A stretch of DNA of 9,649 nt from a virus. Its lineage: Duplodnaviria; Heunggongvirae; Uroviricota; Caudoviricetes. This document shows positions 389 to 8,794 of the stretch, in pieces. Below the pieces are notes generated by a model. That model was not told the DNA's origin, ran no database searches, and worked only from the letters and a program-made list of their open reading frames with translations. The position numbers and the translations under genes were made by a program. The stretch's first letter is position 1. The number at the start of each line of letters is the position of its first letter. The DNA lies in the IMG/VR virus record IMGVR_UViG_3300014893_000026, positions 1-9,649 of that record; one strand, given 5' to 3'.

Positions 389-476
389 CTTTTATTCACT
401 TACGTTTCGCCAGTTCGCAGGATTTCGTGTTATCCGCCCGCGTGGCCATACCTTATTTTTCAGCAAAATATTCTGC

Positions 477-1010
477 TTATCTGTCGATTCCCCAGCACGC
501 CAGCGCGCTCTCCTGGTCACGACGGGATACCTGACCGTAGCAGTTGTTTGAACGAATACGGCAGTCTCTGCCACCGTCCTTAATCCACCAGCGAATCGCC
601 TCACACGCTCCCCTGCGATCACCTGCATTAATTCGTTTATAAAACGTCGACGGGAAACACTTACCGGGACCAATGTTGTACGGACAGAATGACGCGATCC
701 CCGCTTTCTGGGGTTCACTCAATGGCACTCTGATGTTTTTCTCCACCCATGCCAGCGCCTCATCACGCTCAATGGCGTTAACCCGGTCGCATTTTTCCTT
801 CGACAACTTCATGCCCGGAACGACAGGTTTGCCATCCACCAGGATGGCACCGCGGCAGATGGTCCAGATACCCGCACCATCACGGTATGCCGTGGTGTGG
901 TTACCTTCCTTTTCATCCAGAAACTGGTCGAGAATGTCAGGCGCAGGCGCACCAGCGGCAATCAGCGCCAGAACGGCAGCCGACAGGCCGTATCTGATTT
1001 TTGCGTTCAT
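477..1010 (-). CDS. rrrQ: Phage lysozyme (T4-lysozyme-like / GH24 endolysin) with N-terminal SAR-like hydrophobic segment
   Basis: 177-aa ORF with ATG at 1008-1010. N-terminal YGLSAAVLALIAAGA segment, then E-x8-D-x5-T catalytic spacing (EGNHTTAYRDGAGIWT) typical of T4-type lysozymes. Position in lysis cassette after the holin. Symbol recalled from K-12 Qin RrrQ (same length); unverified. Confidence 0.88.
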   Translation of the reverse strand: MNAKIRYGLSAAVLALIAAGAPAPDILDQFLDEKEGNHTTAYRDGAGIWTICRGAILVDGKPVVPGMKLSKEKCDRVNAIERDEALAWVEKNIRVPLSEPQKAGIASFCPYNIGPGKCFPSTFYKRINAGDRRGACEAIRWWIKDGGRDCRIRSNNCYGQVSRRDQESALACWGIDR

Positions 1011-1115
1011 GGATATTTATCAGGATTTATCGGTTTCTGAGCCCTGGATATGTTTATCAGTTCCAGCCTGTTGCCTCAGGCTGCTAACAGGTCAATACAA
1101 TCATGAGGATTATTT

Positions 1116-1388
1116 ATGGACAATAACACCATTTCTCTACAGGAGTTGCTCGACAGCATTTCCAGGCTTCGGGAAGACGTGAATACCCTTACCGTCGCCT
1201 TCTCATATCTGGCATTCTCAATTCCAAGGGAACAGATGCAATCAACGCTGGCATCAATCCAGTTTGAATCATGCAATCCCAAATGGTCTCAGGAACAACA
1301 AGACTCTTTCAGGCGGCTTGCTGTATTACTGGATGAAAAATATGCTGGTAAAATTACCATTTCGGCGGACTCTTCAGAGAACCCGTAA
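1116..1388 (+). CDS. Hypothetical 90-aa protein, antisense to the lysis operon
   Basis: ATG at 1116 preceded by GAGGA with 6-nt spacing (tgaGGAttatttATG). Fills most of an otherwise empty ~340-bp gap between the DUF1327 gene and the endolysin. 3' end overlaps the DUF1327 gene 3' end by 35 bp (convergent). No family recognised. Confidence 0.4.
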   Translation: MDNNTISLQELLDSISRLREDVNTLTVAFSYLAFSIPREQMQSTLASIQFESCNPKWSQEQQDSFRRLAVLLDEKYAGKITISADSSENP

Positions 1389-1698
1389 TTATTCCCGGTA
1401 GTTTTCCTCTGTAGGTTATCAACACATCCTGCGCCTCTAAAATTACGGGGCGCTTTTCCGGCGACTGCTCATCCCCTTCACATAACCCGGCAGCAACATC
1501 CAGGAAGACCTGTCTGATGCTCCTTCTGGCTGCTGCCTCATAAAACTCCAGCGCGGCACCTTCAACACGGTCCAGCGAGATGTCCAGGTCAAAAATTTCA
1601 CCGTCAAAGCGTTTTTTGTCCCTTAATGCTACAGTTACCGCAACTTTATTCTCAAAATTGCGGATCCCTTTCACAATCAGTTCATAGTTTTGTGTCAT
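1354..1698 (-). CDS. ydfR: DUF1327-family phage protein (YdfR-like)
   Basis: ORF-track entry 1354..1719 begins at a TTG; the likely true start is ATG 1696-1698 (MTQNYELIVKGIRNFENK...), preceded by GGGGAGAG. Lies between holin and endolysin as in K-12 Qin (essQ-ydfR-rrrQ). Family and symbol are from memory. Confidence 0.75.
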   Translation of the reverse strand: MTQNYELIVKGIRNFENKVAVTVALRDKKRFDGEIFDLDISLDRVEGAALEFYEAAARRSIRQVFLDVAAGLCEGDEQSPEKRPVILEAQDVLITYRGKLPGIITGSLKSPPKW

Positions 1699-1702
1699 TG
1701 AA

Positions 1703-1918
1703 TTACTCTCCCCGTGCAACCTTACGCTTGTCTTCTTTAATCTTGAAATAAAGGTTTGTCAGGTACGTCAGCAAGCCAAATACCAGACTACCCAGCACAC
1801 CGATTGCAGCCCACTGTGACGGAGTTACTTTATCGAGTAACTGCAATGCCCAGAAACCAGCATTACCAGCCGATGTGCCATAGGCGATACCTGTTGTTAA
1901 CTTATCCATTGATTTCAT
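1703..1918 (-). CDS. essQ: Phage 21-type class II holin (pinholin)
   Basis: 71 aa, [71 protein letters not shown]: two hydrophobic segments and a basic C-terminus, the S21/EssD/EssQ pattern. ATG at 1916-1918. Confidence 0.9.
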
Positions 1919-2136
1919 ATCCTCACCCCGATGTACACAGATGGTGCAATATGTTTGAAAAGATCGGAGTCTATGGGGTAGTTTTTATAGCAAACGTTGT
2001 TCTCAACGGCGCTAAAAAACAGACACATTAAAAATGTGGGTAATTATTTTAAAAGAAAATCATATATTAAATAATAATACGAGATATGTTTTCATATTTA
2101 GTGTACTGTATACGGCCATTTATACAGGAAAAGCCT

Positions 2137-2307
2137 ATGTCAGAACGTAAAGACTCAAAATCACGCCGTAATTATCTCGTTAAATGTTCCTGCCCAAACT
2201 GCACCCAAGAGTCAGAACACAGTTTTTCAAGAATACAAAAAGGTGCCCTTTTGATCTGCCCTCATTGCAACAAAGTATTCCAGACAAATCTTAAAGCTGT
2301 AGCTTGA
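2137..2307 (+). CDS. Small zinc-ribbon protein (56 aa; two CxxC pairs)
   Basis: ORF-track entry 2086..2307; the likely start is ATG 2137 (MSERKDSKSRRNYLVKCSCPNCTQESEHSFSRIQKGALLICPHCNKVFQTNLKAVA), preceded by AGGAAA at 7-nt spacing. CPNC...CPHC suggests a Zn ribbon. Possibly the K-12 Qin small protein YnfU; that name is from uncertain memory and is not asserted. Confidence 0.65.
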   Translation: MSERKDSKSRRNYLVKCSCPNCTQESEHSFSRIQKGALLICPHCNKVFQTNLKAVA

Positions 2308-2363
2308 TTGATTTTATTCGTAACAAGTATTTTTTATATTTTAATAACATATTTAAAGCAGAT

Positions 2364-2395
2364 AATAAAAAACCCGCCTGAGCGGGTTTAATATT
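2364..2395. terminator. Bidirectional rho-independent terminator between the zinc-ribbon gene (+) and cspB (-)
   Basis: AAAAAACCCGC-ctga-GCGGGTTT (stem 2373-2377 / 2382-2386). The minus strand has the stronger U-run (GCGGGTTTTTTATTATC). Confidence 0.6.
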
Positions 2396-2670
2396 GTGGT
2401 ACTTTTTGTGGGAGTCATCCACTTACGCACTTTGTTTTGCTATGCCAGCAGTTAGCTTCTGCTGTAAAACTATTCATGCAGCAAACCTGCACTTCACCAC
2501 AATGGTTAGCATACTTTTCCTGATTAAGTTATTGCCAAATATGCTGGCCATTGTTTCATGTATTGGACCTCCTTACTATTTATTAAAGAGATCCAATATT
2601 CACCACTCTGTCTGTATCTCCACTCAGGCATCAGCCTTCTTCGTTATCGTATACAGACAAACTATGAATT

Positions 2671-2886
2671 TTAATCAGTAATTATGACATTTGCTGCTGC
2701 AGGACCTTTAGCACCACTCTCTACAGAGAAGGTAACCTTTTGACCTTCAAATAAGGTTCGATAATTATCATTCTGAATCGCAGAAAAATGCACAAACACA
2801 TCTTTACTACCATCAACAGGAGAAATAAAGCCAAAACCTTTATCAGCGTTAAACCATTTTACTAAACCAGTCATTTTATTTGACAT
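2671..2886 (-). CDS. cspB: Cold-shock protein, CspA family
   Basis: 71 aa, [71 protein letters not shown], with RNP1-like KGFGFI and RNP2-like VFVHF motifs. Near-identical to my recollection of E. coli CspB. AAGGA 7 nt upstream of the ATG. Confidence 0.93.
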
Positions 2887-2941
2887 TCTACATTCCTTAA
2901 CTTGAGCCTTTCGGCATAAATGGCTTGTATAACAGAAACGA

Positions 2942-3100
2942 CTTCGTACTTAATTGGAGAGACTCAAAGAAGGAATAAGTGAATAACACCTGAAATGAGA
3001 ACTGCTTTAGTAAACTACTTCGTACTTAATTGGAGAGACTCAAAGAAGGAATAAGTGAATAACACCTGAAATGAGAACTGCTTTAGTAAACTACTTCGTA
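2942..3100. repeat. Perfect 76-bp tandem duplication (two full copies plus 7 bp of a third) in the cspB-cspF divergent intergenic region
   Basis: 2942-3017 and 3018-3093 are identical base for base (cttcgtacttaattggagagactcaaagaaggaataagtgaataacacctgaaatgagaactgctttagtaaacta); 3094-3100 restarts the unit (cttcgta) before diverging. Confidence 0.9.
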
Positions 3101-3262
3101 TATCGTCTGTTCTTCAAACCGACGCAATCATTAACGCATAGTTGAACATATGAAGCAATGTTTATTTTAGACATCCAGCCATCTTCAACCCCATCAAAAA
3201 ACTATAGCTTTCTTCAGGAACGTGTGTATAGTGCGCCAAGTTATCAGTATTAAGGAATTTTT

Positions 3263-3475
3263 TTGTCCCGTAAAATGACAGGAATTCTCAAAACCTTTGA
3301 CGGCAAAAGCGGCAAAGGTCTTATAACCCCATCCGATGGTCGTATCGATGTCCAGCTTCATGTTTCAGCGCTCAATCTCCGCGATGCAGAAGAAATTACC
3401 ACCGGATTACGCGTGGAATTTTGCCGGATAAATGGTCTGCGTGGACCATCAGCTGCCAATGTTTACCTTTCATGA
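3263..3475 (+). CDS. cspF: Cold-shock-domain protein, CspA family (CspF-like)
   Basis: 70 aa, [70 protein letters not shown]. The conserved MS-x-KMTG N-terminus implies a TTG start at 3263 (AAGGA 6 nt upstream); ATG 3275 is the alternative. Divergent from cspB as in K-12 Qin. Confidence 0.85.
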
Positions 3476-3529
3476 GCTATATTAAAGCTTTAACTTCAAG
3501 TCCCATCGAATCAAACATGGAGAGTTTTC

Positions 3530-3619
3530 ATGAATAAACCCGTCTGTCTTGATGACTGGTTGATTGGCTTTAAAAGCTTATGCTGTACTTTGACCTTAAT
3601 AGCTCTGCTAATAATGTAA
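3530..3619 (+). CDS. Hypothetical 29-aa peptide downstream of cspF
   Basis: ATG 3530-3532 preceded by GGAGAG at 5-nt spacing; translation [29 protein letters not shown], stop TAA 3617-3619. Hydrophobic C-terminal half. Below the ORF-track cutoff. No terminator between cspF and this ORF; the first hairpin is at 3766-3791. Confidence 0.3.
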
Positions 3620-3763
3620 TAAGCAGACTCATTGTATCTATGGACATTGTACTGGAAGAAAACATTTTAAACATCAGGCAAAAAACAAAGTCACCCGATA
3701 AATAATAAGTAAACTAACATGAATCCCGTAATGAGATTCAACATCTCTATTACCCTATTTAAA

Positions 3764-3796
3764 GCACAAAAACCCGCTCATCAGCGGGTTTTCTAC
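3764..3796. terminator. tR'-like bidirectional intrinsic terminator
   Basis: AAAAACCCGCT-catc-AGCGGGTTTT (stem 3773-3778 / 3783-3788). The minus strand continues TTTTTGTGCTTT; the plus strand continues TTTTCTACTTTTT. Lies about 40-65 nt downstream of the predicted PR' start on the minus strand. Confidence 0.7.
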
Positions 3797-3837
3797 TTTT
3801 TCTTAACTTCGGGTATACAAAGCCCATCGTTGAAAAA

Positions 3838-3866
3838 ATTTTATCCATATTTTTTGAAAAATGCAA
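3838..3866 (-). promoter_or_regulatory. Late promoter PR'-like sigma70 promoter immediately downstream of Q
   Basis: On the minus strand: -35 TTGCAT (3861-3866), 17-nt spacer, -10 TAAAAT (3838-3843). Sits between the Q stop (3898) and the tR' hairpin, the standard lambdoid Q / PR' / qut / tR' layout. Confidence 0.6.
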
Positions 3867-3897
3867 GCATCACGTCGCCATCTTCGGCGAAAATCAC

Positions 3898-4650
3898 TTA
3901 TCTCGTCACCTTTCTCAATTGTGCTTCAGCGTAAGATTCCTCCTGCCAGCACTTTGTAACCAGTTTATCAATGACATTTGCATATCCTTTATACCACTGA
4001 TAATCACTCAGGTCCGGTACCAGCTTCTGGACATGATGCCGCGCCAGTGTGGTTGGTAAACGACTAAACCGTTTTCCATTGCAACGCCCACAAATCTTAT
4101 AAACAGGTGTGCCATGAAGCCGGGTCCTTTTTTCATCCAGGACAATACCTTTACCCTTACACCCTCTGCACGCTGTGCTGACTTCTCCCTTACCATGGCA
4201 ATGCTGACATAGTTCCTTCACCCACTCTTCTTTGATAACAGATTCCCCGCTTCTGGAGTGTTTCACCACTTCGCGCAATACATTATGAAATCCAGTACCA
4301 GCACAATGCTCACAACGAGCCTTACTTGCCGCAGACCTGGAATAATCAGCAAAGGCAAAATTCACAAGGTAAGGAATAATCTGTAGCCGGGTTTCTTCAC
4401 TCAATTTATTCAATGTCGGGTTATCCAGTGCCATCGCGTAATTGAGCAGACCTTCAATCGCAAACTGAGGATCCTGAACACCAACTTTTGCCAGGAATAA
4501 GGCAAACCCAAGCGGTGCTTTCGACTGCACCATCCCCTGCGCAGCCATCACATCCGTAATCGTTAAACCACCAGAGCCTGTCGCCGGTGCGTCATCACTC
4601 AATTTTGGAGATTTTGGGGAGTAATATTTTGGTAAGGCTTCAAGGTTCAT
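3898..4650 (-). CDS. quuQ: Late-gene antiterminator Q
   Basis: 250 aa with Cys/His clusters (CEHCAGTG, CQHCHGKG, CRGCKGKG, CGRCNGKR), directly upstream of PR'/tR'. Length and N-terminus (MNLEALPKYYSPKSPK...) match my recollection of K-12 QuuQ (YdfT). GGAGA 6 nt upstream of the ATG. Confidence 0.88.
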   Translation of the reverse strand: MNLEALPKYYSPKSPKLSDDAPATGSGGLTITDVMAAQGMVQSKAPLGFALFLAKVGVQDPQFAIEGLLNYAMALDNPTLNKLSEETRLQIIPYLVNFAFADYSRSAASKARCEHCAGTGFHNVLREVVKHSRSGESVIKEEWVKELCQHCHGKGEVSTACRGCKGKGIVLDEKRTRLHGTPVYKICGRCNGKRFSRLPTTLARHHVQKLVPDLSDYQWYKGYANVIDKLVTKCWQEESYAEAQLRKVTR

Positions 4651-4677
4651 GCTCGTTCTCCACTTACGCCAGTACGC

Positions 4678-5664
4678 CTATNNNNNNNNNNGCGCACGAT
4701 CGATAAAACGAAATATCAGCTCCAGCTGGGAGCCATACTTCTCTTCAAATGCCACGGTATCCGCATGCAGCTCGTCGTGATGCTTTCTGCACAAAGGCAA
4801 CACAAAAAGGTCATGCGCTTTTGTTCCCATTCCACCCTGACCGTGACCTGTCAGGTGGTGGGGATCATCTGCGGGCTTTCCACAACATGCACACTGCTGT
4901 GTCTTAACCCAGCGCGTGTACTTTTCATTAACCCAGCGGCGACGTTTTGGGCGTAACATAAAAGACTCCGGCGACTCCGGATCCACTTTCAGCGCCAGCA
5001 CCTTTTTCGCCTTATCCTGGATGATGCTGGTGGCAGGAACCGAAGGCACAAGGTCACTTTCCCGGGTGACAGACGGCACAACAGGCTTCGGTAATCTCAG
5101 TGCCTTACGGGCTGCGCTTTCCGGTAAGGCATCCGCCAGGTCATTACGAATCAGCCACCAGCACAGTTCCGGCATTGTCACAACGTGACTGTCATCAAAA
5201 CCGAGATCCCGACGCACAACAGACAACACCCAGCGGGCACAGTTATCCGTTGCCATTAATTCCAGCCGTTCCGTGAACTGATCGCGCAGCTGGTTATCAC
5301 AGTGCCAGCACAGACGGATTGCACCCGGCGCGTGTCGCATTGTGGTCATGTTCTCGCTGTGCCAGTCGGAATGAGGCCACTGGCAGCCTTTTTCACGAAG
5401 TAACCAGCTTTCAAGACATTCCACGCCACCAGCACGACGGATCACTGCCTCATTGCGGAACACGGCCCGAACGGCAGGATCATCCGCCAGCGGTTGTGAT
5501 ACCGCCGGAACGGCACCACTGGCGAAAGATGAATAACGTTCCGGCTCAGGCTCCAGCAGGACACGCCCCTGCATAAACAGGGGCATCAGTTCTGAACCTG
5601 GTCTGAACAATACGATCCCCATACGCGGGGCAATTTCAGGGGTCAGTAGTGCTCTCACGGTCAC
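4678..5664 (-). CDS. DUF968-like protein with C-terminal Cys/His-rich HNH-like motif (YdfU-like); 3' end interrupted by an assembly gap
   Basis: 328-codon ORF; C-terminal CACCGKP...HHLTGHG...CRKHHDELH resembles an HNH/zinc-binding module. Position after Q matches K-12 Qin ydfU (from memory). The last codons span the N-run 4682-4691, so the true C-terminus and stop are uncertain. Start is GTG 5662-5664 or the next GTG (5656-5658); GAGG is upstream. Confidence 0.65.
   Translation of the reverse strand: MTVRALLTPEIAPRMGIVLFRPGSELMPLFMQGRVLLEPEPERYSSFASGAVPAVSQPLADDPAVRAVFRNEAVIRRAGGVECLESWLLREKGCQWPHSDWHSENMTTMRHAPGAIRLCWHCDNQLRDQFTERLELMATDNCARWVLSVVRRDLGFDDSHVVTMPELCWWLIRNDLADALPESAARKALRLPKPVVPSVTRESDLVPSVPATSIIQDKAKKVLALKVDPESPESFMLRPKRRRWVNEKYTRWVKTQQCACCGKPADDPHHLTGHGQGGMGTKAHDLFVLPLCRKHHDELHADTVAFEEKYGSQLELIFRFIDRAXXXX
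4682..4691. other. Assembly gap (10 N)
   Basis: Run of 10 ambiguous bases between the DUF968 gene 3' end and the Q start codon. Confidence 0.99.
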
Positions 5665-5665
5665 C

Positions 5666-6481
5666 TCAATGAACGGTATCGAGCAGCTTTAACAGCTCAG
5701 GGAATCGGGATTCGAAGAAATGCGGCTGCGTCTCGCGCGGATTTGCAGGACTGGTGATGTTCTTGCCGAACATGCAGCCTTTCGCGGTCAGCGACCAGAA
5801 TTTTTTGATGTTGTTAATCGCGGTACGACTGTATCGTTCGCGTTGTTCAACGATCCCCAGCTTCGCCATCTGGTGATATGCCTGATTAGCCGTCAGGCGG
5901 ATACCATACTGCTTCAGCAGTGCACTCAGCGACAGCGTAGGGCGGCTTGAACCATCTGGCGCATCAGCAGGTGCATCAATGGCATAGATCGGCATAAGTT
6001 CAGGAAGACCAGCTACCTTTGATAATTTCTGGTATGCACCAAGTTTCGAGGAGTTTGACAGATTTAGAGTCTTTGCTGCTGATTCAAGCAGAATGACCCC
6101 GGATTTAATTTTGTCAGATGTGGTTTCTTCTGGTGATGAATTATGAAGCGCATCAAAAGTACGTATCACTTTTAAGCTGAATGCCGGGCTGATCCACATT
6201 GCATATGCATAGACCAGCTCTTTACAGACATACGTCCCACCATTGCGCCCCTGAATGGTGATGACAGGAATACTACGGGAATCTCCCGTAGTTTCTTCTT
6301 CCAATAATTCCACAAGAGCCTTCGTTTCAGGACGACGCATAAACTCGTGAACTTCCAGCGAACGGGAGGAGCGATTCTCACCAGCGGCAAGAAGAGCAGC
6401 TTTCTGAAGGTCGTTAAGACAGTAGTTAGATTCGAAGTACTGGCGCACAGAAACGCCATCAATTACAAGCAACTGATTCAT
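5666..6481 (-). CDS. KilA-N domain protein (Roi/antirepressor-like)
   Basis: ORF-track entry 5666..6493 starts at GTG; the likely start is ATG 6479-6481 (MNQLLVIDGVSVRQ...) with GGAGA 6 nt upstream. The N-terminal ~100 aa (GTYVCKELVYAYAMWISPAFSLKVIRTF) resemble the KilA-N DNA-binding domain. Stop is 1 nt from the DUF968 gene start. Confidence 0.78.
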   Translation of the reverse strand: MNQLLVIDGVSVRQYFESNYCLNDLQKAALLAAGENRSSRSLEVHEFMRRPETKALVELLEEETTGDSRSIPVITIQGRNGGTYVCKELVYAYAMWISPAFSLKVIRTFDALHNSSPEETTSDKIKSGVILLESAAKTLNLSNSSKLGAYQKLSKVAGLPELMPIYAIDAPADAPDGSSRPTLSLSALLKQYGIRLTANQAYHQMAKLGIVEQRERYSRTAINNIKKFWSLTAKGCMFGKNITSPANPRETQPHFFESRFPELLKLLDTVH

Positions 6482-6578
6482 TGGTTTCTCCACAAATTTT
6501 TATCCACGAGCGGGACTGCACTCCCTTTTCGTTGATGCAGGATGAACTTACTGCGATTTTTAATAGTTATCAAGGATA

Positions 6579-6598
6579 CACTGTTCATAAATACAGTA
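6579..6598. promoter_or_regulatory. Canonical LexA (SOS) box, CTGT-N8-ACAG
   Basis: caCTGTtcataaatACAGta: CTGT 6581-6584, 8-nt AT-rich spacer, ACAG 6593-6596. Lies in the 162-bp intergenic region between the rusA stop and the KilA-N start, about 100 bp upstream of the KilA-N ATG. Only CTGT-N8-ACAG match I found by eye in the window. Confidence 0.6.
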
Positions 6599-6643
6599 TC
6601 TTTAACGAGGTAATACCCAAATTTAGGGTGTTGCTCAATTCCG

Positions 6644-7039
6644 TTACCGAGTTGCTAATTTGCAACTCGCTTTTTCGTACTTACTGATAGTGATCTCGAC
6701 CTTCCCCTCCGGGATAACCGGTCCCCACTCCACCAGCATTCTTTTCACCTGACTGTCGTCTTCCCACACACCCGCGTGGGTCAGGGCGTCAAACAGCGCC
6801 TTGTTATAGTTGTCCAGATCGCGGATCCGGTTATCCGGAGGAAACAACACGATCTCCACTGAAGCAGGTGCCGACGTTGGTTTTGGCAGACGACGTAACT
6901 GCTCAACTATTGCTGCACACGCCGCGCTCTGGAATTTTCGCCCCGCCGCGCTTATCAGGCTCTTACCAGCAAACGCCCCTTTGTTGGGGTGTCGCCAGTA
7001 CGTGTTCACGCTGGGCGGAAAAGGCAGGATCAGCTTCAT
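6644..7039 (-). CDS. rusA: RusA-family Holliday junction resolvase
   Basis: 131 aa. LPFPPSVNTYWRH and RDLDNYNKALFDALTHAGVWEDDSQV match the recalled RusA motifs LPWPPSNNRYYRH and [26 protein letters not shown]. Start overlaps the upstream gene stop (ATGA). Confidence 0.85.
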   Translation of the reverse strand: MKLILPFPPSVNTYWRHPNKGAFAGKSLISAAGRKFQSAACAAIVEQLRRLPKPTSAPASVEIVLFPPDNRIRDLDNYNKALFDALTHAGVWEDDSQVKRMLVEWGPVIPEGKVEITISKYEKASCKLATR

Positions 7040-7362
7040 ACTTTCAGGCCCCTCTCATGTAACCAGTGGGCTGCACGCAGCCTGGCGTTTTCCTCACCGG
7101 CAAGCAGTGAGCGGATAATCCCGACCGCCTCGCTGTCGTCGTCCTTCACCACGGTATGAAGCGTGATCCCCCGGGCCACACCACGCTTTATCGTGATGAC
7201 GCCTTTTTTCTCCAGTGCGCGAAGATGCTCCACCGCTGCATTCACTGAACGGTATCCCAGCATGGTTGCCACCTCCTGATTGGTTGGCGGGAAGCCACGT
7301 TCTTTCTGATAAGAAATCAGCATATCCAGCACCTGCTGCTGGCATTGAGTTAACGTCGTCAT
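7036..7362 (-). CDS. LexA N-terminal DNA-binding-domain protein lacking the S24 peptidase domain
   Basis: Likely start ATG 7360-7362 (overlaps upstream stop, TAATG). MTTLTQCQQQVLDMLISYQKERGFPPTNQEVATMLGYRSVNAAVEHLRALEKKGVITIKRGVARGITL aligns along its length with recalled E. coli LexA residues ~1-70, including the recognition-helix region (GFRSPNAAEEHLKAL in LexA). Only ~40 further residues follow; no Ser/Lys peptidase domain. Confidence 0.75.
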   Translation of the reverse strand: MTTLTQCQQQVLDMLISYQKERGFPPTNQEVATMLGYRSVNAAVEHLRALEKKGVITIKRGVARGITLHTVVKDDDSEAVGIIRSLLAGEENARLRAAHWLHERGLKV

Positions 7363-7852: not shown

Positions 7853-8794
7853 TCACCCCCTGAATCCTGCCGGGATCTGGCTGTAGTCCACGTTGTCGTA
7901 ACTGGATTTGAAGTACGGGTCTTCGCGTTTTTCGGTGTACGTGCTGACGGACGGTGATAAGCGCAGGGAAAGCTCATCCCATTTTTCCCGCAACTTCGAC
8001 GGGCTGAGCACGTTACGGCACCAGAACGGATCGCGGTTGACGCGGCTGTACATCTCGCAGATTTGTTTGTGAGTACGACCATCCTGCACACACATCAGGC
8101 GAATTTCGTTTGCCCAGGCTGTCCAGTTCGGTTCTTTGGGACGAACCACCTCGCCGTCACATTCGGCGGCCTGCTCGTACAGGGCGATGATTTTTTTCCA
8201 GAGCCACTGTGCGCAGGTCAAATCATCCTGCGTTCCCCACTGGCGCTTTTTAGGGCTGAATACAACCGCATCAGGATGGCGAGTTAAAAACTCCTGTTCA
8301 GCCGTCTGCGTGTCCGGTTGCGAAGCGTCCGGACGAGAAGTATTTTTATCTGACGGATCATGTTTTGATTTTACTGACGGATCCCCGCCAGATTCTGACG
8401 GGTGAAAACCCGCTTTTTTGCCAGATTTCGACGCATCAAATTTTGACGGGTCAGATTTTGATGCGTCAGATTTTGACGGGTCAGAATCTGACAGTTGAGA
8501 AAATGCCGCTGCCTGAAGCTTCGCAACGTTAAGCTGATAAACATTCGACGCATTGCGGTTACCCTGGCGACGCGCCTTACGCGTTAACCAGCCTTCTGCT
8601 TCCAGCCGTGCGATAGCCGTTCTGACGGTACTCATCCCCGCGCCAATCTGGCGGGCAATGGTTTCAATTGATGGCCAGCACACACCTTCGTCATTACTGA
8701 AATCAGCCAGGCGGGCCATAATTGCCACGCTGGATAACTTCATGCCTGATGCAGCGCAACCATCCCATACATAGCCGGTTAATTTAGTGCTCAT
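7853..8794 (-). CDS. Phage replication initiation protein (O-like), N-terminal winged-helix domain, internal iteron-encoded linker
   Basis: 313 aa. The N-terminus (SVAIMARLADFSNDEGVCWPSIETIARQIGAGMSTVRTAIARLEAEGWL) looks like the HTH domain of phage replication initiators. The central low-complexity SDSDPSKSDASKSDPSKFDASKS region is encoded by tandem DNA repeats. AGAGG upstream of ATG 8792-8794. Confidence 0.7.
   Translation of the reverse strand: MSTKLTGYVWDGCAASGMKLSSVAIMARLADFSNDEGVCWPSIETIARQIGAGMSTVRTAIARLEAEGWLTRKARRQGNRNASNVYQLNVAKLQAAAFSQLSDSDPSKSDASKSDPSKFDASKSGKKAGFHPSESGGDPSVKSKHDPSDKNTSRPDASQPDTQTAEQEFLTRHPDAVVFSPKKRQWGTQDDLTCAQWLWKKIIALYEQAAECDGEVVRPKEPNWTAWANEIRLMCVQDGRTHKQICEMYSRVNRDPFWCRNVLSPSKLREKWDELSLRLSPSVSTYTEKREDPYFKSSYDNVDYSQIPAGFRG
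8340..8500. repeat. Iteron-like array of ~15-bp imperfect direct repeats inside the replication initiator gene (candidate origin)
   Basis: Recurring (T/C)TGACGG / TGA(C/T)GC cores at 8351, 8375, 8396, 8429, 8444, 8458, 8474 (e.g. cagattttgacgggt / cagattttgatgcgt / cagattttgacgggt), with a more AT-rich stretch at 8336-8375 on the gene-downstream side. Confidence 0.6.

What the first reader, a model, noticed from the sequence alone, without database searches (positions are those of the whole stretch)
3530..3619. Unannotated 29-aa ORF probably co-transcribed with cspF
ATG with GGAGAG at 5-nt spacing, 55 bp after the cspF stop, with no terminator in between. Product [29 protein letters not shown] has a hydrophobic C-terminus like small membrane peptides or type I toxin-like peptides. 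Late transcripts from PR' would run antisense across it.
Basis: partly seen in the sequence, partly recalled or inferred. Interest (0 to 1): 0.4.

Follow-up and report, generated by a model that had tools for sequence, protein, structure and literature searches.

The report
Known small-protein gene ynfS after cspF
The 29-codon reading frame is real, but it is the already named and experimentally confirmed small-protein gene ynfS of Qin-type E. coli prophages, so it is a correct call and not a discovery; what the peptide does is still unknown.

Summary
ATG 3530 to stop 3619 (+) encodes [35 protein letters not shown] (3519-3524) lies 5 nt upstream, 54 nt separate it from the cspF stop, and no terminator or promoter-like site lies between.

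It is not unannotated in public records. The same position in E. coli K-12 is ynfS (b4750, 4 aa differences), and RefSeq calls it a hypothetical protein in the closest genome. The peptide matches Pfam PF23697 'YnfS' (70 bits, cut-off 27).

Translation of K-12 YnfS was shown by a chromosomal SPA tag (VanOrsdel 2018). Weaver 2019 reports strong retapamulin and Onc112 start-codon peaks.

Here, all 205 copies recovered have exactly 29 codons, the GGAGAG site, and a cspF-like gene 54-65 nt upstream. E. coli versus Citrobacter gives dN/dS of about 0.1-0.3, although the DNA downstream and the Q gene differ.

Co-transcription with cspF is well supported but inferred. Antisense read-through from PR' is plausible: a lambda-type PR' with the identical pause element and a two-way terminator lie between ynfS and Q.

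Nothing supports a type I toxin. Membrane insertion is only borderline by hydrophobicity.

Verdict: already known, low interest, function still open.

The parts
3530..3619 (+). ynfS coding sequence (29 codons plus TAA): [29 protein letters not shown]
   Evidence: ORF list. Same position as ynfS b4750 in K-12. Pfam PF23697 YnfS, 70.1 bits against a cut-off of 27. Always 29 codons in 205 copies. dN/dS about 0.1-0.3 against Citrobacter. Variable columns by codon position 15/11/21.
3519..3524 (+). Shine-Dalgarno sequence GGAGAG, 5 nt before the ATG
   Evidence: Sequence. GGAGAG is kept in every E. coli and Citrobacter copy although the spacer upstream of it has diverged and carries indels.
3476..3518 (+). 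cspF-ynfS spacer up to the Shine-Dalgarno site (54 nt in all from the cspF stop to the ATG), with no terminator or promoter-like site
   Evidence: Scan and fold. Spacer length is 54 nt in E. coli types and 59-65 nt in Citrobacter types.
3263..3475 (+). cspF (cold-shock-domain protein, 70 aa), inferred first cistron of the operon
   Evidence: NCBIfam NF012007 CspF, 158 bits. RefSeq annotation.
3227..3232 (+). Putative -10 hexamer TATAGT of the cspF-ynfS promoter (inferred)
   Evidence: The block TGTGTATAGTGC is conserved between E. coli and a Citrobacter-type locus, about 30 nt before the cspF start. RNA polymerase holoenzyme binding in the cspB/cspF spacer is reported by genomic SELEX (PMC5493296). 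The simple promoter scan did not call it.
3769..3792 (.). Two-way intrinsic terminator hairpin (10-bp perfect stem, 4-nt loop) with T runs on both strands. It would end the cspF-ynfS transcript and serve as tR' for the late promoter.
   Evidence: I7. On the - strand, GAAAACCCGCTGATGAGCGGGTTTTTGTGCTTT.
3823..3866 (-). Lambda-type late promoter PR': -35 TTGCAT (3866-3861), 17-nt spacer, -10 TAAAAT (3843-3838), TTTTTC, then AACGATGGG (3831-3823)
   Evidence: - strand sequence. Same layout, and an identical TCAACGATGGG, as lambda downstream of Q.
3898..4650 (-). Q-type antiterminator gene (quuQ/ydfT homologue, 250 aa), convergent with cspF-ynfS
   Evidence: Pfam PF03589 Antiterm 1.5e-53. PHROG 127. 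RefSeq annotation.

Best explanation
The ORF is the ynfS gene of a Qin-type lambdoid prophage. It is the second cistron of a two-gene cspF-ynfS cassette that sits, in the opposite orientation, between the Q antiterminator and the lysis genes.

Transcription (inferred) starts at a promoter about 30 nt before cspF, crosses the 54-nt spacer and ynfS, and stops at the two-way hairpin at 3769-3792. Ribosomes start independently at the GGAGAG/ATG site; translation is shown for the K-12 orthologue.

The product is a 29-residue peptide with a conserved central motif (L7, D9-W10-L11, G13, K15-S16, C18, T20) and a short hydrophobic C-terminal tail. By analogy with other small bacterial proteins, it most likely acts as a tail-anchored or membrane-associated peptide that binds a larger protein partner. 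It does not look like a poison.

When the prophage is induced, Q-modified RNA polymerase from PR' (3866-3823, - strand) must read through the same hairpin. It then crosses ynfS and cspF antisense on its way to cspB and the lysis genes, which would be expected to damp the cassette's expression.

Shown: gene identity, family membership, conservation under purifying selection, and linkage to cspF. Shown elsewhere for K-12: translation. Inferred: operon structure, membrane association, partner binding and antisense damping.
For: Identity:
- Same locus as K-12 ynfS, with 97% DNA identity over the region and 25 of 29 residues identical.
- Pfam YnfS 70.1 bits, with nothing else at E<=1. Citrobacter homologues also pass the cut-off.
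- The exact window allele is in public databases on about 1000 contigs. The K-12 allele is UniProt YNFS_ECOLI.

Translation (literature, K-12):
- SPA-tag immunoblot, and a positive in a tetracycline ribosome-profiling screen (PMC6001520).
- Strong start peaks with retapamulin and Onc112 (bioRxiv 10.1101/511675).

Selection:
- 79 of 80 IMG/VR loci found through cspF alone carry an intact 29-codon ORF; one has a nonsense allele.
- E. coli versus Citrobacter: pN 0.24-0.31 against pS 0.57-0.97.
- No indels in the ORF, while the spacer has indels and the DNA after the stop is unrelated.
- Substitutions follow codon position 3 > 1 > 2.

Operon:
- No terminator or promoter between the genes.
- 205 of 205 copies lie 54-65 nt after a cspF-like gene, including next to a different Q type and in a non-phage context.

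Late promoter: layout and 11-nt pause block identical to lambda PR'.
Against: - No direct transcript evidence for a bicistronic mRNA was found. An internal promoter too weak for the scan cannot be excluded.
- The uninterrupted hydrophobic stretch is only 13 residues. A 19-residue window includes Lys15 and sums to about 0 kcal/mol on the Hessa scale for the E. coli forms, and to +1.5 to +3.8 for the Citrobacter forms. True membrane insertion is therefore uncertain.
- No partner, phenotype or localisation has been reported. A 2024 review still lists ynfS as uncharacterised (PMC11551758).
- Natural loss occurs: deletion in E. ruysiae-type loci, a cspF pseudogene without ynfS, and one nonsense allele. 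The gene is dispensable.
- Within E. coli, all 4 differences between alleles are non-synonymous. The number is too small to interpret.
Confidence: 0.85

Rival explanations
1. YnfS is a type I toxin-like membrane peptide. Its synthesis would be held in check by antisense RNA, either a dedicated small RNA or the PR' late transcript, and it would harm the membrane when over-made.
For: The size (29 aa) and hydrophobic C-terminus are in the range of known small toxins. The location is a prophage that also carries hokD. Antisense transcription across it is predicted after Q action.
Against: - At E<=1 it matches no Pfam family other than YnfS, so no toxin family.
- No Rfam RNA family lies in or near it, and no - strand promoter-like site lies near it.
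- It sits 54 nt behind another gene with a strong ribosome-binding site. Typical type I toxins have their own promoter and a long structured leader.
- The K-12 protein is detectably made from the chromosome in growing and stationary cells, with strong initiation peaks. That is unlike tightly repressed toxins.
- The most conserved residues are in the polar middle motif, not the hydrophobic tail.
Confidence: 0.06
2. What matters is the act of translating the ORF, not the peptide. Examples would be shielding the long 3' part of the cspF mRNA from Rho or RNases, or coupling to cspF translation through pairing of the cspF 3' end with the ynfS ribosome-binding site.
For: The cspF 3' end (CUUUC/CUCUC plus UG) can pair with the GAGAG of the ribosome-binding site in all seven sequences compared. 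The 3' UTR after ynfS is long, about 150 nt before the terminator.
Against: - The amino-acid sequence is under purifying selection, and the length is fixed at 29 codons across genera. A purely regulatory ORF would not need that.
- The pairing shows no compensatory change, and both sides are constrained for other reasons.
- The stronger E. coli hairpin (z = -2.4) is not kept in Citrobacter.
Confidence: 0.07
3. It is a chance ORF with a chance Shine-Dalgarno match and no biological role.
For: ORFs of this size with a Shine-Dalgarno core are common: 17 of 145 ATG ORFs of at least 25 codons in the window have one.
Against: Conservation of frame, length and ribosome-binding site across E. coli, Salmonella records and Citrobacter. 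Published translation evidence. A curated Pfam family.
Confidence: 0.02

Closest known systems
YnfS of E. coli K-12 (b4750, UniProt YNFS_ECOLI, Pfam PF23697)
   Same: Same position between cspF and the Q antiterminator gene. Same length (29 aa) and the same ribosome-binding site. 25 of 29 residues are identical.
   Different: Four conservative substitutions (N3K, A22T, V23L, I29M). The window's prophage is a mosaic relative of Qin, not K-12 Qin itself.
YnfR, YnfQ and YmcF: small proteins encoded next to the cold-shock genes cspI and cspG
   Same: Small proteins found by the same tagging study (YnfR, YnfQ) or annotated (YmcF), lying directly beside csp genes in or related to Qin. YnfR-SPA rises after cold shock.
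   Different: No sequence similarity was seen. ynfS follows cspF, and no cold induction has been reported for YnfS. The cspF paralogue cspH has no ynfS-like ORF after it.
Type I toxins (for example TisB, Ldr, Hok, Ibs, ShoB; from general knowledge)
   Same: A very small peptide with a hydrophobic segment, encoded in a prophage.
   Different: No family match, no dedicated antisense RNA found, second gene of an apparent operon, and freely translated in growing cells.
Small membrane-protein regulators (for example MgrB, AcrZ, MgtS; from general knowledge)
   Same: Size class, a hydrophobic segment and a conserved short motif that could contact a partner.
   Different: The hydrophobic stretch is shorter (13 uninterrupted residues) and lies at the very C-terminus. 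No partner or localisation is known.
Lambda PR'/tR' late-control region
   Same: -35, 17-nt spacer, -10, 6 nt, then an identical TCAACGATGGG just downstream of Q, followed by an intrinsic terminator.
   Different: The terminator is closer, about 40 nt from the pause block against about 190 nt in lambda. It is two-way and shared with the convergent cspF-ynfS unit. The Q protein is of the 250-aa zinc-finger type.

Membership tests
YnfS (Pfam PF23697) | Scores above the family's gathering cut-off over the full 29-position profile | tested here: met
   70.1 bits against a cut-off of 27, E 1.2e-19, residues 1-29 on profile positions 1-29.
YnfS (Pfam PF23697) | Orthologous position: directly downstream of cspF, before the Q antiterminator gene of a Qin-type prophage | tested here: met
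   Annotated regions of A33 and K-12 and the DNA alignment. 205 of 205 copies follow a cspF-like gene.
YnfS (Pfam PF23697) | The protein is actually synthesised | not testable with these tools
   Shown for the K-12 orthologue only: SPA-tag immunoblot (PMC6001520) and retapamulin/Onc112 start peaks (10.1101/511675). The ribosome-binding site and start are the same here except for one spacer base.
Type I toxin-antitoxin | Sequence membership of a known toxin family | tested here: not met
   Pfam at E<=1 returns only YnfS. NCBIfam, PHROGs and PADLOC return nothing.
Type I toxin-antitoxin | A dedicated antisense or adjacent small RNA antitoxin with its own promoter | tested here: not met
   No Rfam family at gathering score other than the cspA thermoregulator on cspB. 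No - strand promoter-like site between 3230 and 4700. A novel, uncurated RNA cannot be excluded.
Type I toxin-antitoxin | Toxic on overexpression, with translation normally repressed | not testable with these tools
   Literature on K-12 shows ready translation in growing cells, which argues against repression. No toxicity test was found.
Single-pass small membrane protein | A hydrophobic segment long enough to span the bilayer (about 19 residues) with favourable insertion energy | tested here: inconclusive
   13 uninterrupted hydrophobic residues (17-29). The 19-residue window contains Lys15. The Hessa sum is -0.3 (window), -1.0 (K-12) and +1.5 to +3.8 (Citrobacter).
Bicistronic operon with cspF | No terminator or promoter between the genes, and conserved adjacency | tested here: met
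   The transcript itself was not observed.
Lambda-type PR' late promoter | Promoter just after Q, a sigma-70-dependent pause element at the start of the transcript, and a downstream terminator | tested here: met
   Alignment with lambda gives the same spacing and an identical TCAACGATGGG. Hairpin at 3792-3769. The function of the pause element is inferred from lambda biology.

The most novel reading that the evidence does not exclude
cspF and ynfS form a mobile two-gene functional unit. The peptide would work together with the atypical cold-shock-domain protein CspF, for example by tethering or modulating it at the membrane. The unit would be switched off by convergent Q-dependent late transcription through a terminator shared with PR'. 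That would make it a lysogeny-specific module whose expression reports the prophage state.
Probability: 0.15. Interest if true: 0.45.

Novelty: already known. Interest (0 to 1): 0.1.

Why it matters
It shows that the first-stage reader can recognise a genuine small-protein gene from sequence alone. The gene itself, however, is named, has a Pfam family and has published translation evidence.

What remains open is its function. This analysis adds three things:
- The peptide is under purifying selection across genera.
- It never occurs without cspF.
- It lies convergent to a lambda-type late promoter with which it shares a terminator.

These points give a concrete starting hypothesis for anyone studying YnfS or CspF.

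Tried and rejected
Structure prediction, representative search and contig look-up need at least 30 aa, so none was run.
- NCBIfam, PHROGs and PADLOC gave no hit for the peptide.
- A long-range hairpin enclosing the ynfS start in the E. coli sequence (z = -2.4) is not conserved in Citrobacter. I dropped it as a regulatory structure.
- Pairing of the cspF 3' end with the ribosome-binding site is conserved but shows no covariation. It is kept only as a minor idea.
- I looked for a ynfS-like ORF after the paralogue cspH in K-12 and found none.
- The literature search for cspF/Qin gave no operon or function data. It yielded only RNA polymerase binding in the cspB/cspF spacer and a mild induction of cspF in mixed biofilms.
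[quoted passage not shown] That paper therefore gives no evidence on co-regulation.
- The opposite-strand ORF 3570-3674 was considered as the source of the conservation. I rejected it because the DNA after the ynfS stop is unrelated in Citrobacter.

Full report
**Observation**

- ATG at 3530 and TAA ending at 3619 give 29 codons: [29 protein letters not shown].
- GGAGAG lies at 3519-3524 with a 5-nt spacer.
- cspF occupies 3263-3475, so 54 nt separate its stop from the ATG.
- The consensus scan finds no + strand promoter-like or terminator-like site between the two genes.
- Folding 3466-3640 shows no G+C-rich hairpin with a T run.
- The first + strand terminator is the perfect 10-bp hairpin at 3769-3792.

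By itself such an ORF is not unusual. Of 145 ATG ORFs of at least 25 codons in the window, 17 have a Shine-Dalgarno core at a suitable distance.

**Identity**

The window is a Qin-type lambdoid prophage of E. coli. The 701 bases around the ORF are 100% identical to strain A33. About 1,410 of 5,426 complete E. coli genomes hold at least 80% of that stretch.
- In A33, RefSeq already annotates the ORF as hypothetical protein WP_122632654.1.
- In K-12 MG1655 the same position is ynfS, b4750, 'protein YnfS'. Its product [29 protein letters not shown] differs at four residues.
- The peptide matches Pfam PF23697 'YnfS' over its whole length (70.1 bits, cut-off 27), and nothing else at E<=1.
- The exact allele is in public protein collections on about a thousand contigs. 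The K-12 allele is UniProt YNFS_ECOLI.

So the ORF is not unannotated in public records.

**Published evidence**

- VanOrsdel et al. 2018 (PMC6001520) tagged the K-12 ORF on the chromosome with SPA and detected the protein. They list it as ynfS between cspF and ydfT, 29 aa, and note it was also a positive in a tetracycline ribosome-profiling screen.
- Weaver et al. [quoted passage not shown]
- A 2024 review still lists ynfS among uncharacterised Qin genes (PMC11551758).

The toxicity test has not been reported in what I could search.

**Conservation**

I first used cspF alone as the anchor, which is unbiased with respect to ynfS.
- The anchor returned 80 IMG/VR loci and 13 loci from a one-genome-per-species collection.
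- Of the 80 viral loci, 79 carry an intact 29-codon ORF and one has a nonsense codon at K15.
- Four Citrobacter loci carry a 29-codon homologue 48-52% identical in protein.

A degenerate pattern search then brought the total to 205 copies in 11 protein variants. All have exactly 29 codons, all have GGAGAG upstream, and all lie 54-65 nt after a cspF-like gene.

Between E. coli and Citrobacter:
- Synonymous sites are near saturation (pS 0.57-0.97) while pN is 0.24-0.31. Where dS can be computed, dN/dS is 0.12-0.32.
- Variable columns follow codon position 3 > 1 > 2 (21/15/11).
- The ORF has no indels. The spacer before it has indels, and the DNA after its stop is unrelated.
- Invariant residues are M1, L7, D9, W10, L11, G13, K15, S16, C18, T20 and L26.
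- The Citrobacter peptides also pass the Pfam cut-off.

The gene is dispensable. Some loci have lost ynfS: E. ruysiae-type loci by deletion, and an E. coli strain that has only a truncated cspF pseudogene. The paralogue cspH has no such ORF after it.

**Context and likely operation**

In two Citrobacter loci the pair sits in the same prophage slot but next to a different, roughly 150-aa Q-like gene. In C. braakii it lies in a non-phage neighbourhood near a tRNA-like sequence, seen by eye and not checked with a tRNA finder. cspF-ynfS therefore travels as a two-gene cassette.

I infer a single transcript. This rests on the missing terminator and promoter between the genes. It also rests on a conserved TATAGT block about 30 nt before cspF (3227-3232). 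The transcript would run from about 3240 to the hairpin at 3769-3792. This is inference; I found no transcript map.

On the - strand, directly after the Q gene (3898-4650), lies TTGCAT - 17 nt - TAAAAT - TTTTTC - AACGATGGG (3866-3823). Lambda has TTGACT - 17 nt - TAAATT - TGACTC - AACGATGGG at the same place after its Q gene. This is a lambda-type PR' with the same promoter-proximal pause block.

The hairpin at 3792-3769 also has a T run on the - strand, so it would be tR'. A second terminator-like hairpin follows at 3740-3720. Q-modified polymerase heading for cspB and the lysis genes must cross ynfS and cspF antisense.

**What the peptide does**

This is unknown experimentally.
- The uninterrupted hydrophobic stretch is only 13 residues (17-29).
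- A 19-residue window includes Lys15 and has a summed Hessa energy near zero for the E. coli forms and positive for the Citrobacter forms.
- The best-conserved part is the polar and aromatic middle motif rather than the tail.

My best reading is a tail-anchored or membrane-associated peptide that binds a partner, as many small bacterial proteins do. This is by analogy only.

A type I toxin is unlikely:
- no toxin family match;
- no RNA family and no antisense promoter-like site nearby;
- an operon-distal position with a strong ribosome-binding site;
- free translation in growing K-12 cells.

A purely regulatory ORF is hard to square with selection on the amino-acid sequence. The possible pairing of the cspF 3' end with the ribosome-binding site is conserved but shows no covariation.

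**Verdict**

Novelty: already known. Interest is low. The small added value is the cross-genus selection signal, the strict cspF linkage, and the convergent PR' with a shared terminator.

Noticed in passing
window 2936-3100: A 76-bp tandem duplication (2.2 copies, 98% matching) lies in the region upstream of cspB, overlapping the 5' part of the cspA-type thermoregulator match (2604-3035, - strand). It is absent from strain A33 and K-12. None of the best hits among 1,633 matching records from complete E. coli genomes has it: every best hit aligns in two pieces spanning 345 bp for the 421-bp query. It is flanked by the short repeat ACTTCGTA. It might alter cspB leader or promoter function, or be an assembly artefact.
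   Followed up: partly
window 3823-3866 (- strand) and 3769-3792: A lambda-type late promoter PR' with an 11-nt block (TCAACGATGGG) identical to lambda's promoter-proximal pause region. It is followed after about 40 nt by a two-way terminator shared with the convergent cspF-ynfS unit.
   Followed up: partly
window 3466-3474 with 3516-3524: The last codons of cspF (CUUUCAUG; CUCUCAUG in Citrobacter) can pair with the ynfS ribosome-binding site (CAUGGAGAG). The pairing is kept in all seven sequences compared but has no compensatory changes, so a role in translational coupling is unproven.
   Followed up: partly
window 4682-4691: A run of 10 N at the 3' end of the DUF968-family gene (4678-5664, - strand), just upstream of the Q gene start. 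It is masked or unresolved sequence.
   Followed up: no
window 8422-8485: Four copies of a 15-bp unit (CAGATTTTGACGGGT-like) lie inside the 313-aa ORF at 7853-8794 (- strand). I take this ORF to be a replication protein without having tested it. The repeats encode the repeated SKSDP-type peptide and look like origin iterons within an O-like gene, as in lambda.
   Followed up: no
window 2137-2307 (+): ynfU, another recently named small protein (56 aa, zinc-binding CxxC pairs), lies between the holin gene and cspB, antisense to the late transcript direction.
   Followed up: no
L012 (Citrobacter meridianamericanus) about 1400-1700, - strand: An intact 29-codon ynfS homologue with its ribosome-binding site sits behind a cspF that appears truncated at its 5' end. 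Neighbouring ORFs look by eye like an integrase fragment and phoP; they were not scanned. The peptide gene appears to have outlived its upstream partner's 5' part.
   Followed up: partly
window 467-3024 versus 3012-7362: The window is a mosaic relative to strain A33: 99.5% identical over 3012-7362 but only 94% over 467-3024. The lysis and cspB side therefore comes from a different Qin-like lineage than the cspF-to-RusA side.
   Followed up: no
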